From Przondovirus KP32i192, in sequence record OZ035748.1: 40,168 bases of DNA; one strand, written 5' to 3'. Of the stretch, positions 21,487 to 28,732 are shown one piece after another. Under the pieces are notes generated by a model, which was not told the DNA's origin, searched no databases, and saw only the letters and a list, made by a program, of their open reading frames with translations. Within the stretch, counting starts at the first letter, position 1. Each line of letters begins with the position of its first letter. The position numbers and the translations under genes were made by a program.

Positions 21487-23094
21487 ATGGCAGAAGTTAA
21501 ACTCGAAGGCTTCGCAGAGGAGGGAGCCAAGGCGGTATACGACCGTCTGAAGAATGACCGACAGCCTTACGAGACACGAGCAGAGTCCTGTGCGCAGTAC
21601 ACGATTCCCTCACTGTTCCCTAAGGACTCCGATAACGCATCAACCGATTACACGACTCCGTGGCAATCCGTAGGTGCTCGCGGCCTGAACAACCTAGCGT
21701 CCAAGCTGATGCTGGCCCTGTTCCCGATGCAGTCATGGATGAAGTTGACCATTAGTGAATACGAAGCGAAGAACCTTCTGGGTGACGCTGAGGGTCTCGC
21801 TAAGGTCGATGAGGGCCTCTCAATGGTAGAGCGCATCATCATGAACTACATCGAGTCCAACAGTTATCGAGTGACTCTCTTTGAGTGCTTGAAGCAACTG
21901 TGTGTGGCCGGGAACGCGCTGCTGTACTTACCGGAGCCTGAGGGTTATACCCCGATGAAGCTCTATCGACTGAACTCGTATGTGGTCCAGCGAGACGCTT
22001 TCGGTAACGTACTCCAGATTGTCACCCTCGACAAGATTGCGTTCAACGCTCTCCCTGAGGATGTCCGCAGCCAAGTGGAAGCAGCCCAAGGTGAGCAGAA
22101 GGAAGACGCTGAGATTGACGTCTACACCCACGTGTATCTGAACGAAGCCGGGGATGGCTACTCGAAGTACGAAGAGGTCGCCGAAGCGGTGGTTCCGGGA
22201 AGTGAGGCTGAGTACCCGCTCGAAGAGTGTCCGTACATTCCGGTCCGCATGGTCCGCATCGACGGTGAATCCTACGGTCGTTCCTACGTGGAAGAGTATC
22301 TGGGCGACCTCAAGTCCCTAGAGAACCTCCAAGAGTCCATCGTGAAGATGGCGATGATTACCGCGAAGGTCATCGGTCTGGTAGACCCGGCAGGCATCAC
22401 TCAGGTCCGCCGACTAACGGCAGCACAGTCTGGTGCGTTCGTACCGGGCCGTAAGCAGGACATTGAGTTCCTCCAGCTGGAGAAGTCCGGTGACTTTACC
22501 GTAGCGAAGAACGTAAGCGACACCATTGAGGCTCGCCTCTCGTATGCCTTTATGCTCAACAGTGCGGTACAACGTACAGGTGAGCGAGTCACAGCTGAAG
22601 AGATTCGGTATGTGGCATCAGAGCTGGAAGATACCCTTGGCGGTGTCTACTCGATTCTCTCGCAGGAACTCCAGCTGCCTCTGGTAAGAGTGCTCTTGAA
22701 GCAACTACAAGCCACGCAGCAAATCCCGGAGTTACCTAAAGAGGCCGTCGAGCCAACCATCAGCACTGGCCTTGAGGCTATCGGACGTGGCCAGGACCTT
22801 GACAAGCTGGAGCGGTGTATTGCCGCATGGTCAGCACTTAAGGCACTCGAAGGTGATGACGACCTCAACTTGGCTAACCTCAAGTTACGTATCGCTAACG
22901 CTATCGGACTCGACACAGCTGGTATGCTTCTCACTCAGGAGCAGAAGAACGCTCTTATGGCACAGCAAGGCGCTCAGATTGCTACACAGCAAGGGGCCGC
23001 AGCGCTGGGTCAAGGGATGGCCGCACAGGCCACTGCAAGTCCTGAAGCTATGGCAGCAGCGGCTGATTCAGTGGGTATGCAACCGGGCATGTAA
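21487..23094 (+). CDS. Portal (head-tail connector) protein (T7 gp8-like)
   Basis: 535-aa ORF; long near-identical stretches to recalled T7 gp8. Confidence 0.95.
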   Translation: MAEVKLEGFAEEGAKAVYDRLKNDRQPYETRAESCAQYTIPSLFPKDSDNASTDYTTPWQSVGARGLNNLASKLMLALFPMQSWMKLTISEYEAKNLLGDAEGLAKVDEGLSMVERIIMNYIESNSYRVTLFECLKQLCVAGNALLYLPEPEGYTPMKLYRLNSYVVQRDAFGNVLQIVTLDKIAFNALPEDVRSQVEAAQGEQKEDAEIDVYTHVYLNEAGDGYSKYEEVAEAVVPGSEAEYPLEECPYIPVRMVRIDGESYGRSYVEEYLGDLKSLENLQESIVKMAMITAKVIGLVDPAGITQVRRLTAAQSGAFVPGRKQDIEFLQLEKSGDFTVAKNVSDTIEARLSYAFMLNSAVQRTGERVTAEEIRYVASELEDTLGGVYSILSQELQLPLVRVLLKQLQATQQIPELPKEAVEPTISTGLEAIGRGQDLDKLERCIAAWSALKALEGDDDLNLANLKLRIANAIGLDTAGMLLTQEQKNALMAQQGAQIATQQGAAALGQGMAAQATASPEAMAAAADSVGMQPGM

Positions 23095-24153: not shown

Positions 24154-24176
24154 AATTAGGGCACACTATAGGGAGA
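24154..24176 (+). promoter_or_regulatory. Phage RNAP promoter (phi10-like)
   Basis: AATTAGGGCACACTATAGGGAGA, then a long leader with strong RBS aaggag. Confidence 0.75.
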
Positions 24177-24331: not shown

Positions 24332-25363
24332 ATGGCTAACATGCAAGGTGGACAGCAGCTCGGTACTAACCAAGGTAAAGGTCAATCCGCAGCAGACAAG
24401 CTGGCGCTATTCCTGAAAGTATTCGGCGGTGAAGTCCTGACCGCATTCGCTCGTACCTCTGTGACCTCTAACCGTCACATGCAGCGTCAAATCAGCTCCG
24501 GTAAGTCCGCACAGTTCCCTGTGATTGGTCGCACCAAGGCTGCTTACCTGCAACCGGGCGAGTCTCTGGATGACAAACGCAAAGACATCAAGCACACCGA
24601 GAAGACCATTAACATTGATGGCCTGCTGACCGCTGACGTGCTGATTTACGACATCGAAGACGCGATGAACCACTATGACGTGCGCTCCGAGTACACCTCT
24701 CAGATTGGTGAATCTCTGGCGATGGCAGCTGATGGCGCGGTTCTGGCTGAGCTGGCTGGTCTGGTTAACCTCGCTGATTCCGTCAACGAGAACATCGCTG
24801 GTCTGGGCAAACCGTCCCTGCTGGAAGTTGGTGCTAAGGCTGACCTGACCGACCCGGTTAAACTGGGCCAAGCGGTTATCGCACAGCTGACCATTGCTCG
24901 TGCGGCTCTGACCAAGAACTACGTCCCGGCTAACGACCGTACGTTCTACACCACCCCGGACGTGTACTCTGCGATTCTGGCAGCTCTGATGCCTAACGCT
25001 GCGAACTATGCGGCTCTGATTGACCCTGAGCGTGGTTCTATCCGTAACGTGATGGGCTTCGAAGTCGTTGAGGTTCCGCACCTGACCGCTGGTGGTGCTG
25101 GTGATGACCGCCCGGACGAAGATGCAGAAGCGACCAACCAGAAGCACGCCTTCCCGGCAACTGGTGGTAAAGTCAACAAAGAGAACGTTGTGGGCCTGTT
25201 CCAGCACCGTTCCGCTGTCGGTACCGTCAAGCTGAAAGATCTGGCTCTGGAGCGTGCTCGTCGTACCGAGTATCAGGCTGACCAGATTGTTGCTAAGTAC
25301 GCGATGGGTCACGGTGGTCTGCGTCCAGAATCTGCTGGTGCACTGGTTTTCACAGCAGCCTAA
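24332..25363 (+). CDS. Major capsid protein 10A (T7 gp10A-like)
   Basis: 343-aa ORF; near-identical to recalled T7 gp10A over long blocks. Confidence 0.95.
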   Translation: MANMQGGQQLGTNQGKGQSAADKLALFLKVFGGEVLTAFARTSVTSNRHMQRQISSGKSAQFPVIGRTKAAYLQPGESLDDKRKDIKHTEKTINIDGLLTADVLIYDIEDAMNHYDVRSEYTSQIGESLAMAADGAVLAELAGLVNLADSVNENIAGLGKPSLLEVGAKADLTDPVKLGQAVIAQLTIARAALTKNYVPANDRTFYTTPDVYSAILAALMPNAANYAALIDPERGSIRNVMGFEVVEVPHLTAGGAGDDRPDEDAEATNQKHAFPATGGKVNKENVVGLFQHRSAVGTVKLKDLALERARRTEYQADQIVAKYAMGHGGLRPESAGALVFTAA

Positions 25364-25641
25364 GCGTAAATACCTTTAGTGCTCGGACGGTGACTCCGTC
25401 TGAGTACGAGGTACAGACTGTGACCATTGCTGGTGATTCACTTAAGGTGACACTTGATGGGCTGGAGGGAGTAACGGACTGGTCAACCCTTGAGGTAACT
25501 TATGGTACTTCCGGGATTGCCAGCCACACTCGCCGGACCAACACGCTGTACTTCAAAGGAATCGCTGTGGGCGAAACCCTAGTGACTGTCGGCTTTGACG
25601 GGTCTGAAAGGAAGTCCTTTAAGCTGGTCGTGACTAATTAA
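24332..25641 (+). CDS. Minor capsid protein 10B via programmed -1 frameshift at GGTTTTC (25345-25351)
   Basis: Slippery heptamer G GTT TTC in the 10A zero frame, 4 codons before the 10A stop; -1 frame is open from there to 25641 and continues as the 25390..25641 ORF. Confidence 0.55.
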
Positions 25642-25650
25642 ACTAAGCCA

Positions 25651-25692
25651 AACCCCTTGGGGACCACTCACGGTCTCTGAGGGGTTTTTTCG
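25651..25692 (+). terminator. Tphi-like intrinsic terminator downstream of capsid gene
   Basis: CCCCTTGGGGACC actcac GGTCTCTGAGGGG followed by TTTTTT; closely resembles the recalled T7 Tphi. Confidence 0.7.
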
Positions 25693-25707
25693 TTAGGAGC
25701 TTACATT

Positions 25708-26286
25708 ATGAACATGCAAGATGCTTACTTTGGGTCTGCCGCTGAGCTGGATGCTGTCAACGAGATGCTCGCAGCCATCGGTGAATCCCCGGTGACCACC
25801 CTTGACGAAGATGGTAGCGCAGACGTAGCGAACGCTCGTCGTATCCTCAACAGGATTAACCGCCAGATTCAGTCTAAAGGTTGGGCCTTCAACATCAACG
25901 AGTCGGCCACACTGACCCCGGATGCCAGCACTGGGCTTATCCCATTCCGTCCGGCCTACCTGTCAATCCTTGGTGGCCAGTACGTCAACCGTGGTGGATG
26001 GGTGTACGATAAGTCCGCTGGGACAGACACCTTCTCTGGGCCAATCACTGTGACCCTGATTACCCTTCAGGACTACGATGAGATGCCTGAGTGTTTCCGC
26101 CAGTGGATTGTCACCAAGGCCAGCCGCCAGTTCAACTCTCGGTTCTTCGGAGCGGAGGACGTAGAGAACTCTCTGGCACAGGAAGAGATGGAAGCGCGTA
26201 TGGCGTGCAACGAGTACGAGATGGACTTCGGACAGTACAACATGCTTGACGGTGACGCATACGTTCAGGGTCTCATCGGTCGTTAA
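25708..26286 (+). CDS. Tail tubular protein A (T7 gp11-like)
   Basis: 192-aa ORF; [20 protein letters not shown] and C-terminal blocks match T7 gp11. Confidence 0.9.
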
Positions 26287-28709: not shown

Positions 28710-28732
28710 AATTAGGGCACACTATAGGGAGA
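28710..28732 (+). promoter_or_regulatory. Phage RNAP promoter (phi13-like)
   Basis: AATTAGGGCACACTATAGGGAGA. Confidence 0.75.

What the first reader, a model, noticed from the sequence alone, without database searches (positions are those of the whole stretch)
25340..25641. Conserved -1 programmed frameshift site extending the capsid gene into 10B
The heptamer G GTT TTC sits in the zero frame of gene 10A four codons before its stop, and the -1 frame is open for a further ~97 codons that encode a Thr/Val/Gly-rich domain. This matches the known T7 10A/10B mechanism. The 10B extension is displayed on the capsid surface in T7.
Basis: partly seen in the sequence, partly recalled or inferred. Interest (0 to 1): 0.5.

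Follow-up and report, generated by a model that had tools for sequence, protein, structure and literature searches.

The report
Capsid gene frameshift adding Ig-like domain
A T7-like Klebsiella phage very probably uses the known T7 ribosome slip near the end of its capsid gene to add an antibody-like surface domain to some capsid subunits; the mechanism is ordinary, but public records list this piece as a separate small gene or omit it.

Summary
The window is a K11/KP32-like Klebsiella phage (Przondovirus). Gene 10A (24332-25363) carries G GTT TTC at 25345-25351 in the X XXY YYZ phase. TTC is the fourth codon before the stop. The -1 frame then runs 96 codons to a stop at 25639-25641, just before a Tphi-like terminator.

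- In about 65 related loci, GTT TTC sits at this position wherever this domain follows gene 10A. T3, with a different Big_2 extension, uses C CCA AAG.
- The extension is always open in the -1 frame. Linker lengths differ by whole codons.
- The domain part has dN/dS of 0.2-0.35 in that frame only.
- No start codon is conserved and no phage promoter lies inside.

The extension is not homologous to T7 10B. It is a disordered linker of about 19 residues plus a seven-strand Ig-like beta-sandwich (phrog_7473, no Pfam match), shared with some Kayfunavirus, Pectobacterium, Dickeya and Erwinia phages.

Databases list it as a separate 73-84 aa ORF. No fused protein was found.

A new detail is an 18-bp hairpin at 25371-25413, supported by covariation. 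It lies 19 nt after the slip site, so its role as a stimulator is unproven.

Verdict: new member of a known kind, modest interest.

The parts
24159..24172 (+). Core of a K11-type phage promoter upstream of gene 10 (phi10 equivalent)
   Evidence: Exact match to GGGCACACTATAGG. The next match on the + strand is at 28715, so there is none inside gene 10 or the extension. The K11 record annotates phi10 at the homologous place.
24332..25363 (+). Gene 10A, major capsid protein (343 aa, 36.5 kDa), zero frame, including the TAA stop at 25361-25363
   Evidence: ORF listed. Pfam Gp10A-like, E 1.1e-102. 99.6% nucleotide identity to Klebsiella phages Kp_Pokalde_002 and KP32 isolate 192. SD-like site with dG -9.3. 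Mass.
25345..25351 (+). Slippery heptamer G GTT TTC (codons ctG GTT TTC): proposed site of the -1 ribosomal shift
   Evidence: Phase checked. It is identical, at the homologous codons, in T7, K1F, SH4, Dev2, PP74 and all Przondovirus loci. It reads C GTT TTC in Ninurta-like loci and A GTT TTC in L063.
25367..25369 (+). Second in-frame TAA for 10A, used in relatives whose first stop is TCA, CAA or CGA
   Evidence: 10A ends two codons later in 21 of the loci listed there (20 of the Przondovirus-like set, including L001, L012, L021 and L033, plus L041), and one locus (L066). This TAA is invariant.
25363..25386 (+). Nucleotide block that is nearly invariant in Przondovirus-like relatives (AGCGTAAATACCTTTAGTGCTCGG). 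It has the lowest synonymous-site diversity in the whole of gene 10.
   Evidence: Only 2 of 428 windows of 8 consecutive wobble positions have zero diversity. Both lie at 25365-25389. Alignment.
25371..25413 (+). Conserved RNA hairpin: 6-bp lower stem, 2-nt bulge, 12-bp upper stem, 5-nt loop. It is a candidate frameshift stimulator or another mRNA element. It starts 19 nt after the heptamer and 7 nt after the first UAA.
   Evidence: The 69-nt segment 25352-25420 has MFE -28.1 kcal/mol, z -4.06, and 0 of 200 shuffles fold as well. 98-99% of cells are paired against 35-52% when the partner is slid. Compensatory changes occur at 2 pairs (A-U to G-C in 13 sequences and C-G to U-A in 11 of 39), and at a third pair when L066 is added. 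No Rfam match.
25351..25407 (+). -1 frame linker of 10B (residues 341-359 of the fusion: HSSLSVNTFSARTVTPSEY), predicted disordered
   Evidence: Translation. pLDDT is 47-59 for residues 1-20. It is open in the -1 frame in every relative. Total extension length (93-103 aa) varies by whole codons.
25408..25641 (+). -1 frame Ig-like beta-sandwich domain of 10B (77 residues) plus the TAA stop at 25639-25641. Family phrog_7473.
25650..25693 (+). Tphi-like intrinsic terminator (stem-loop 25650-25687, then a T run), 9 nt after the 10B stop. The 5' arm contains CCCC, as in T7 Tphi.
   Evidence: Terminator scan. K11 and Kp_Pokalde_002 annotate a terminator at the homologous place. Atkins et al. 2016 (PMC5009743) report that a CCCC in the T7 terminator is involved in T7 gene 10 frameshifting.
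25708..26286 (+). Gene 11 (tail tubular protein A), the next gene. It bounds the locus.
   Evidence: ORF. Annotated as tail protein or tail tubular protein A in relatives.

Best explanation
Proposed mechanism. This is the gene 10A/10B programmed -1 ribosomal frameshift of T7-like phages, in a K11/KP32-like Klebsiella phage. Most ribosomes read 10A to UAA at 25361 and make the 343-aa major capsid protein. A minority slip one base back with GUU in the P site and UUC in the A site (G GUU UUC, 25345-25351). They continue with CAC at 25351 and make a 436-aa, 46.5-kDa 10B. That protein is capsid residues 1-340, a linker of about 19 residues, and a 77-residue Ig-like beta-sandwich. Because the capsid body is identical, 10B would co-assemble into the shell with the Ig-like domain on the outside. 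There it probably gives weak adhesion to surface glycans such as capsule or mucus.

Shown here:
- the site, its phase and the open frame;
- conservation of the site and of the frame relationship;
- purifying selection on the domain in the -1 frame;
- the Ig-like fold of the model;
- absence of a conserved start codon or an internal phage promoter;
- a conserved downstream hairpin.

Inferred:
- that shifting actually occurs, and at what rate;
- that the hairpin or the terminator stimulates it;
- that the domain is on the capsid surface, and what it binds.
For: 1. The heptamer is in the correct phase, four codons before the stop.
2. The same heptamer lies at the homologous codons of T7, whose RefSeq record has a joined 10A/10B CDS. 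T3 has a joined CDS with C CCA AAG two codons later. For Kvp1, -1 shifting at TTTTCA was shown by mass spectrometry (PMC2579914). G_GU is an accepted X_XX variant for T7 gene 10 (PMC5009743).
3. In 50 loci, 15 more and L066 and L067, the domain always lies in the -1 frame relative to 10A. The frame is always open from N GTT TTC. Extension lengths of 93, 94, 96 and 103 aa differ by whole codons.
4. Domain codons 14-96 have dN/dS of 0.22-0.35 in the -1 frame and 1.1-3.2 in the other two frames. Variable columns at codon positions 1, 2 and 3 number 24, 19 and 44.
5. No start codon is conserved. Candidate GTG or ATG codons fall at codon 13, 14, 21 or 24 depending on the genome, which explains the 84, 76 and 73 aa gene calls. 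The GTG at 25390 has no SD (dG -1.1). The first predicted strand (residues 20-26) begins upstream of the GTG at codon 24.
6. K11-type promoters lie at 24159 and 28715 only. The terminator follows the 10B stop, so the extension is transcribed only as part of the gene 10 mRNA.
7. The model is Ig-like, the same kind of domain that T3 adds to its capsid protein by frameshift.
Against: - No proteomic or reporter evidence was found for this phage group. The SH4 virion MS used a database of predicted ORFs only.
- P-site re-pairing on GGU is imperfect. The first base is C or A in some relatives, so the shift may rest mainly on tRNA-Phe slipping on U UUC.
- The conserved hairpin starts 19 nt after the heptamer, outside the usual 5-9 nt. 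No canonical stimulator was identified.
- A GAGG lies 8 nt upstream of the GTG at 25420 and gives a plausible SD (dG -7.2), so some independent initiation cannot be excluded in this genome.
- Two relatives carry a disrupted domain (L042 and L060). This shows either dispensability or assembly error.
Confidence: 0.85

Rival explanations
1. The extension is a separate small gene, as most records annotate it ('minor capsid protein' or 'hypothetical protein', 73-84 aa). It would be translated from its own GTG or ATG, either de novo or by reinitiation after termination at the 10A stop.
For: Gene callers and submitters annotate it this way. In this window, the GTG at 25420 has GAGG 8 nt upstream (dG -7.2). 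Kp_Pokalde_002 annotates an RBS there. Every relative has some GTG or ATG within the first 24 codons. The 10A stop lies only 27 nt before the GTG at 25390, so coupling is conceivable.
Against: - The start position is not conserved. Codon 24 is GTA or GTC in many relatives, and codons 13 and 14 are GCG GTA or GCG GCA in several.
- The GTG at 25390 has no SD.
- The GAGG belongs to the 3' arm of the conserved hairpin.
- A start at codon 21 or 24 would truncate the first predicted strand.
- The frame is always -1 relative to 10A and always open back to the heptamer. Linker indels are whole codons. An independent gene would have no need for any of this.
- The heptamer is conserved even where neighbouring synonymous sites vary.
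Confidence: 0.08
2. The fusion is made by transcriptional slippage of the phage RNA polymerase on the T run, which deletes one base from the mRNA, rather than by ribosomal frameshifting.
For: The product would be nearly the same. The site contains T4. Transcriptional slippage is a known alternative route to such fusions (PMC5009743).
Against: A run of four T is far shorter than the homopolymers that usually support slippage (general knowledge). According to the literature read here, the homologous T7 and Kvp1 events are attributed to ribosomal frameshifting. The conserved feature is the codon-phased GTT TTC, not a longer run.
Confidence: 0.03
3. The -1 ORF is not expressed at a meaningful level. 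It would be a relic, and the heptamer is kept only because it encodes Val-Phe of the capsid protein.
For: Two relatives carry broken versions (L042 and L060). T7 10B is reported to be dispensable (general knowledge). Val-Phe is conserved at the protein level.
Against: Purifying selection acts in the -1 frame. The frame stays open in lineages down to 45-50% identity in the domain. The domain model is well folded. The codons GTT and TTC are fixed, although synonymous alternatives exist and neighbouring wobble sites vary.
Confidence: 0.03

Closest known systems
Bacteriophage T7 gene 10A/10B -1 programmed ribosomal frameshift (Condron, Atkins and Gesteland 1991, as cited in PMC5009743 and PMC1635266)
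   Same: The capsid protein is homologous (78% identity over 10A). The heptamer G GUU UUC is identical and lies at the same codons, three sense codons before the stop. The -1 extension ends just before a Tphi terminator that contains CCCC.
   Different: The extension is 96 codons rather than 56, and it does not align with the T7 or K1F tail. It is a folded Ig-like domain rather than a low-complexity tail. No GGGG run follows the site, unlike T7. Instead there is a strong conserved hairpin 19 nt downstream.
Bacteriophage T3 10B: an Ig-like (Big_2) capsid extension made by -1 frameshift
   Same: A T7-like capsid protein is extended by about 90 residues that form an Ig-like domain reached by a -1 shift near the end of 10A.
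   Different: T3 uses C CCA AAG two codons further on. Its domain matches Pfam Big_2 (E 4e-10). The window's domain matches no Pfam family, and a profile comparison with T3 finds nothing.
Phage Ig-like domains appended to structural proteins, often by frameshift (Fraser et al. 2006, as summarised in PMC5009743): the C-terminal domain of lambda gpV, T4 Hoc, and N4 and other decoration proteins
   Same: The domain has a seven-strand beta-sandwich fold and a C-terminal position on a virion protein. It has a patchy distribution among related phages, which suggests domain shuffling.
   Different: The sequence family (phrog_7473) is not among the Pfam Ig-like families. Binding to any ligand is untested.
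'Minor capsid protein' ORFs annotated downstream of gene 10 in KP32, CR8 and Pectobacterium phages (PMC7693777)
   Same: This is the same sequence family. PP81 'minor capsid protein' is the top BFVD match, with 42% identity. PP74, pEp_SNUABM_12 and Ninurta are homologs.
   Different: Those annotations treat it as a free-standing gene 'with no homologs in T7'. The evidence here indicates it is the frameshift extension of 10A.

Membership tests
T7-type gene 10 -1 programmed ribosomal frameshift (10A/10B) | The upstream ORF is a T7-like major capsid protein | tested here: met
   Pfam Gp10A-like, E 1.1e-102. 78% identity to T7 10A.
T7-type gene 10 -1 programmed ribosomal frameshift (10A/10B) | An in-phase slippery heptamer (G GUU UUC type) lies a few codons before the 10A stop | tested here: met
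   25345-25351, phase verified. Conserved in relatives.
T7-type gene 10 -1 programmed ribosomal frameshift (10A/10B) | The -1 frame is open from the site to a stop before the terminator, and it evolves as coding sequence | tested here: met
   96 codons. dN/dS is 0.2-0.35 in the -1 frame only. The frame is open in all 67 related loci, apart from two with disrupted domains.
T7-type gene 10 -1 programmed ribosomal frameshift (10A/10B) | Two capsid proteins share an N-terminus in virions, and a junction peptide is present | not testable with these tools
   No proteomic data for this group were found. No fused protein is present in the protein database.
T7-type gene 10 -1 programmed ribosomal frameshift (10A/10B) | A distal stimulatory element in the terminator (CCCC), as reported for T7 | tested here: inconclusive
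   The terminator with CCCC is present at 25650-25687. Its role cannot be tested. The spacer shows no complementarity to downstream sequence beyond what shuffles give.
T7 10B protein (orthology of the extension) | The extension is homologous to the T7 10B tail (...EETLTPAQEAARTRAAN...) | tested here: not met
   No alignment with the T7 or K1F extensions.
Phage Ig-like domains (Big_2, I-set or FN3 on virion proteins) | Ig-like beta-sandwich fold | tested here: met
Phage Ig-like domains (Big_2, I-set or FN3 on virion proteins) | Sequence membership of a Pfam Ig-like family | tested here: not met
   No Pfam hit at E up to 1. hhalign against the T3 Big_2 extension gives probability 0.1. Only a weak phmmer hit (E 4e-4) to an Ig-repeat lipoprotein.
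Canonical -1 PRF 3' stimulator (hairpin or pseudoknot) | A stable structure supported by covariation | tested here: met
   z -4.06. 98-99% of cells paired. 2-3 pairs with compensatory changes.
Canonical -1 PRF 3' stimulator (hairpin or pseudoknot) | A spacer of about 5-9 nt between the slippery site and the structure | tested here: not met
   The spacer is 19 nt to the lower stem and 27 nt to the upper stem. A weak alternative hairpin with a 5-nt spacer is no better than shuffles (z -0.79), and substitutions in relatives break its pairs (sequences, read by eye).
Independent small gene | A conserved start codon with a ribosome-binding site | tested here: not met
   The start position shifts among codons 13, 14, 21 and 24. 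SD is absent at 25390 and moderate at 25420.

The most novel reading that the evidence does not exclude
The conserved 18-bp hairpin at 25371-25413, which lies 19 nt after the slip site and 7 nt after the 10A stop, would be the frameshift stimulator of the K11/KP32 lineage. It would act at a non-canonical distance and replace the unexplained long-range terminator element of T7. The Ig-like domain it helps to express would be a new capsid-borne adhesin family for capsule or mucus glycans, exchanged as a module among Studiervirinae behind a fixed slip site.
Probability: 0.3. Interest if true: 0.45.

Novelty: new member of a known kind. Interest (0 to 1): 0.3.

Why it matters
Annotation. Hundreds of therapeutic-candidate Klebsiella phage genomes, and related Escherichia, Salmonella, Enterobacter, Pectobacterium and Dickeya phages (451 phage records hold the domain), list this region as a free-standing hypothetical or 'minor capsid' ORF, or as nothing. 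The K11 RefSeq record has nothing there. A joined 10B CDS would be the correct annotation.

Biology. It would mean these virions carry an Ig-like domain on the capsid. That is relevant to adherence to capsule or mucus, to immunogenicity, and to use of the C-terminus as a display site, as with T7 10B.

Evolution. T7-like phages have placed at least three unrelated extensions behind essentially the same slip site, sometimes within one genus (K1F against SH4).

Mechanism. The hairpin, supported by covariation, gives a testable handle on how gene 10 frameshifting is tuned. The review read here says this is still unexplained for T7.

Tried and rejected
- **Pfam on the extension:** no hit.
- **Remote homology search over 1.84 billion representatives:** only short phage ORFs, one Ig-repeat lipoprotein and two repetitive spurious hits. 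No in-frame capsid fusion.
- **Junction-spanning protein search:** no fused protein anywhere.
- **Homology with the T3 Big_2 extension:** none by hhalign.
- **Rfam on 25200-25800:** nothing relevant.
- **Long-range pairing of the spacer or the hairpin loop with downstream mRNA and the terminator:** no better than shuffles, 43% of which do as well. This idea, including the by-eye AGCG/CGCU and CCUUU/AAAGG pairing, was dropped.
- **A small hairpin with a 5-nt spacer (25357-25383):** not significant, and not maintained in relatives (sequences, read by eye).
- **An upstream SD-like GGTG:** it is only 4 nt from the site and is not conserved in Kayfunavirus. Rejected as a stimulator.
- **A downstream hairpin as a universal feature:** T7 has one (z -2.3). 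Kayfunavirus hairpins at the homologous codons are not significant (z about -1.4). K1F, T3 and L063 have none.
- **Literature searches for proteomic proof of 10B in the KP32/K11 group:** nothing found.
- **The two Condron 1991 papers:** not held in the library.
Full report
**Identity of the window.** The 1369 bases around the finding are 99.6% identical to Klebsiella phages Kp_Pokalde_002 and KP32 isolate 192, and 97.6% identical to K11 (genus Przondovirus, Studiervirinae). In all, 658 phage records match. The ORF 24332-25363 encodes a 343-aa protein that matches Pfam Gp10A-like at E 1.1e-102. It is gene 10A, the major capsid protein of a T7-like phage.

**The observation.** GGTTTTC lies at 25345-25351. 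Its first base is the third position of codon CTG, so the reading is ctG GTT TTC ACA GCA GCC TAA. TTC is therefore the fourth codon before the stop.
- After a -1 shift, the next codon is CAC at 25351. The frame then runs 96 sense codons to TAA at 25639-25641.
- The product would be 340 + 96 = 436 aa and 46.5 kDa, against 36.5 kDa for 10A.
- The stop is followed 9 nt later by a Tphi-like terminator at 25650-25687, and then by gene 11 at 25708.
- K11-type promoter cores occur at 24159 (phi10) and next at 28715. None lies inside gene 10 or the extension.

**Is it more than chance?**
- The heptamer alone is not rare: 2 copies against 4.0 expected.
- Long -1 frames past a stop also occur elsewhere in this compact genome, because the next gene is often in that frame.
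- Among 8 in-phase slippery-type heptamers in 29 crude genes, this is the only one whose -1 frame runs beyond the gene's stop. The others end after 0-29 codons.
- The decisive evidence is comparative, and follows.

**Conservation of the site.** I collected 67 related loci from IMG/VR, GenBank and Logan/JGI assemblies.
- G GTT TTC lies at the homologous codons in every Przondovirus-like locus. It is also there in Pectobacterium phage PP74 (L041), T7, K1F, and the Kayfunavirus phages SH4 and Dev2.
- Ninurta-like loci have C GTT TTC, and L063 has A GTT TTC.
- T3 has C CCA AAG two codons later.
- The invariant core is therefore GTT TTC. This fits the view that X_XX = G_GU is already an imperfect P-site re-pairing in T7 (PMC5009743). 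It also fits the mass-spectrometric demonstration of -1 shifting at TTTTCA in the T7-like phage Kvp1 (PMC2579914).
- The RefSeq records of T7 and T3 carry joined 10A/10B CDS features.

**Conservation of the frame and coding signature.**
- Wherever the domain occurs, it is in the -1 frame relative to 10A, and the frame is open all the way back to the heptamer. Extensions of 93, 94, 96 and 103 residues differ by whole codons.
- Over 44 unique Przondovirus-like sequences, the domain part (codons 14-96) varies at 24, 19 and 44 columns at codon positions 1, 2 and 3.
- Pairwise dN/dS against the window is 0.22-0.35 in the -1 frame and 1.1-3.2 in the other two frames.
- Diversity at wobble positions equals that of 10A (0.13). 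Diversity at positions 1 and 2 is twice that of 10A (0.046 against 0.023). The domain is constrained, but less so than the capsid body.

**Against an independent gene.**
- Public records annotate the region as a separate ORF of 73, 76 or 83-84 aa, called 'minor capsid protein' or 'hypothetical protein'. The K11 RefSeq record annotates nothing there. None of the records inspected has a join.
- The differing lengths reflect the absence of a conserved start. Candidate GTG or ATG codons fall at codon 13, 14, 21 or 24 depending on the genome. Several genomes have GCG GTA or GCG GCA at codons 13 and 14, and GTA or GTC at codon 24.
- In the window, the GTG at 25390 has essentially no SD (dG -1.1). 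The GTG at 25420 has GAGG 8 nt upstream (dG -7.2, against -9 to -13 for most late genes). That GAGG, however, is part of a conserved hairpin arm.
- A product starting at codon 24 would lose most of the first predicted beta-strand.
- A query spanning the junction (39 aa of 10A plus the extension) found no protein covering both parts among 5.8 billion clusters. The fusion is neither annotated anywhere nor present as a natural in-frame variant.
- A paper on Pectobacterium Studiervirinae describes the ORF as a putative minor capsid protein 'with no homologs in T7' and similar to that of KP32. It does not mention frameshifting (PMC7693777).

**What the extension is.**
- It does not align with the T7 or K1F 10B tails. 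Those two are related to each other (...EETLTP.Q.AARTRAAN...). It also does not align with the T3 extension.
- T3's extension matches Pfam Big_2 (E 4e-10). The window's extension matches no Pfam family. It matches only phrog_7473, of unknown function. hhalign against T3 finds nothing.
- tblastn finds the domain in 451 phage records. About 300 are at 80% identity or more, mostly Klebsiella phages. 149 are below 60%; those listed are at 44-56%, mostly from Escherichia, Salmonella, Enterobacter, Citrobacter and Cronobacter phages (Kayfunavirus among them), and one from Pectobacterium.
- Invariant residues include VTDW, RR.N and Y.K.
- An AlphaFold2 model built on a 15-sequence alignment has residues 1-19 disordered. 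Residues 20-96 form a seven-strand sandwich with pLDDT about 90 (mean 81.9, pTM 0.65).
- Foldseek finds the phage N4 capsid protein chain 9e99_J and lambda gpV in the PDB. In BFVD it finds PP81 'minor capsid protein' (42% identity), BIG2-domain proteins, capsid-decorating proteins and a T7M gp10B fragment.
- The extension is therefore an Ig-like domain of a sequence family not yet in Pfam. It is functionally analogous to the T3 10B extension and to the Ig-like domains that phages often attach to virion proteins by frameshift (review PMC5009743).
- Surface exposure and glycan binding are inferences from those precedents.

**A conserved RNA element.**
- The stretch 25363-25386 (AGCGTAAATACCTTTAGTGCTCGG) is nearly invariant in the 39 unique Przondovirus-like sequences.
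- In a scan of 428 windows of eight consecutive wobble positions across 10A and the extension, only two windows have zero diversity. Both lie at 25365-25389.
- The block forms the 5' arm of a hairpin at 25371-25413: a 6-bp lower stem, a 2-nt bulge, a 12-bp upper stem and a 5-nt loop.
- The 69-nt segment folds at -28.1 kcal/mol, with z -4.06, and none of 200 shuffles folds as well.
- On the alignment, 99% of cells form standard pairs, against 35-52% when partners are slid by 1-3 columns.
- Two adjacent pairs show compensatory double changes: A-U to G-C in 13 sequences and C-G to U-A in 11 of 39. These changes alter the encoded amino acids (Thr to Val, Ser to Pro).
- Wobble-compatible changes occur at two further pairs.
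- Adding the more distant L066, which has seven substitutions in the arms, keeps 16 of 18 pairs and adds a third compensatory pair.
- Caveat: the sequences are closely related, so the shuffle control overstates significance. Several intermediate haplotypes do suggest more than one event.
- No Rfam family matches.

**What the hairpin might do.**
- Its base lies 19 nt after the heptamer, outside the usual 5-9 nt spacing. It lies 7 nt after the first UAA and 1 nt after the second, invariant UAA at 25367.
- A weaker hairpin with a 5-nt spacer is not significant, and substitutions in relatives break its pairs (sequences, read by eye).
- T7 has a hairpin 13 nt downstream (z -2.3).
- Kayfunavirus loci and L067 have different GC-rich hairpins at the homologous codons, about 30 nt downstream, but these are not significant. 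K1F, T3 and L063 have none.
- I therefore record the hairpin as real and selected. Its function is open: frameshift stimulation at an unusual distance, modulation of termination at the 10A stop, or mRNA processing or stability.
- For T7, the review states that a CCCC in the terminator more than 200 nt downstream is involved in frameshifting and that this remains unexplained. The window's terminator also has CCCC. I found no complementarity between the spacer and downstream sequence beyond chance.

**Conclusion.**
This is the T7-type gene 10 -1 frameshift.
- The added value has three parts. First, the extension is a distinct Ig-like domain and not the T7 tail. Second, current records mis-annotate it as a separate ORF or omit it. 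Third, a hairpin supported by covariation accompanies the site in this lineage.
- Frameshifting itself, its efficiency and the function of the domain remain untested.
- I rate it a new member of a known kind, with modest interest.

Noticed in passing
window 25361-25369; relatives L001, L012, L021, L033 and others: 10A has two alternative C-termini in the population (343 or 345 aa). The first TAA is replaced by TCA, CAA or CGA in 21 of the loci listed, and in L066. An invariant second TAA two codons on then terminates. In the -1 frame the change is silent or conservative (Leu CTA/CTC, or Pro).
   Followed up: partly
L040 and L045 (Dickeya Ninurta-like) 1495-1501; L063 1399-1405: The first base of the heptamer is C or A instead of G (C GTT TTC, A GTT TTC), while the extension stays open and conserved. 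P-site re-pairing at that position therefore seems dispensable.
   Followed up: partly
L047 (K1F) against L049 and L050 (SH4, Dev2); L048 (T3); L046 (T7): At least three unrelated extension types sit behind the same or an adjacent slip site: a T7/K1F low-complexity tail (48-56 aa), T3 Big_2 (89 aa), and the phrog_7473 Ig-like domain (93-103 aa). K1F and SH4 are in the same genus but carry different types, which suggests modular exchange between the slip site and the terminator.
   Followed up: partly
L042 about 1483-1782; L060 about 1495-1779: Two relatives have a disrupted domain. In L042 a deletion removes the last strand and runs the frame into the terminator. L060 has a mid-domain frameshift that gives a hydrophobic tail. 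These are either assembly errors or evidence that the domain is dispensable.
   Followed up: no
window 25539-25566: This is the second stretch of nearly invariant wobble positions (pi 0.005), over the codons for RRTNTLYFKG. A by-eye long-range pairing with 25363-25377 was not supported by the duplex test against shuffles. It may simply reflect the most conserved peptide motif.
   Followed up: partly
window 2670, 3498, 8583, 9757, 10922, 12072, 13841, 20667, 23098, 24159, 28715, 36002 (+ strand): Twelve + strand matches (0-2 mismatches) to the K11-type promoter core GGGCACACTATAGG. In total there are 16 matches with up to 3 mismatches, against 3.3 expected by chance. This fits a complete K11-like genome with its own RNA polymerase promoters.
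   Followed up: no
protein P0019: A partial 'hypothetical protein' attributed to Flammeovirga agarivorans is 93% identical to the extension, on a 562-bp contig. It is probably phage contamination in a bacterial assembly.
   Followed up: no
NC_011043 (K11 RefSeq) 22507-22793, equivalent to window 25364-25649: The reference K11 record annotates nothing between 10A and the terminator. Neither 10B nor a separate ORF is listed, although the sequence is 97.6% identical to the window.
   Followed up: yes
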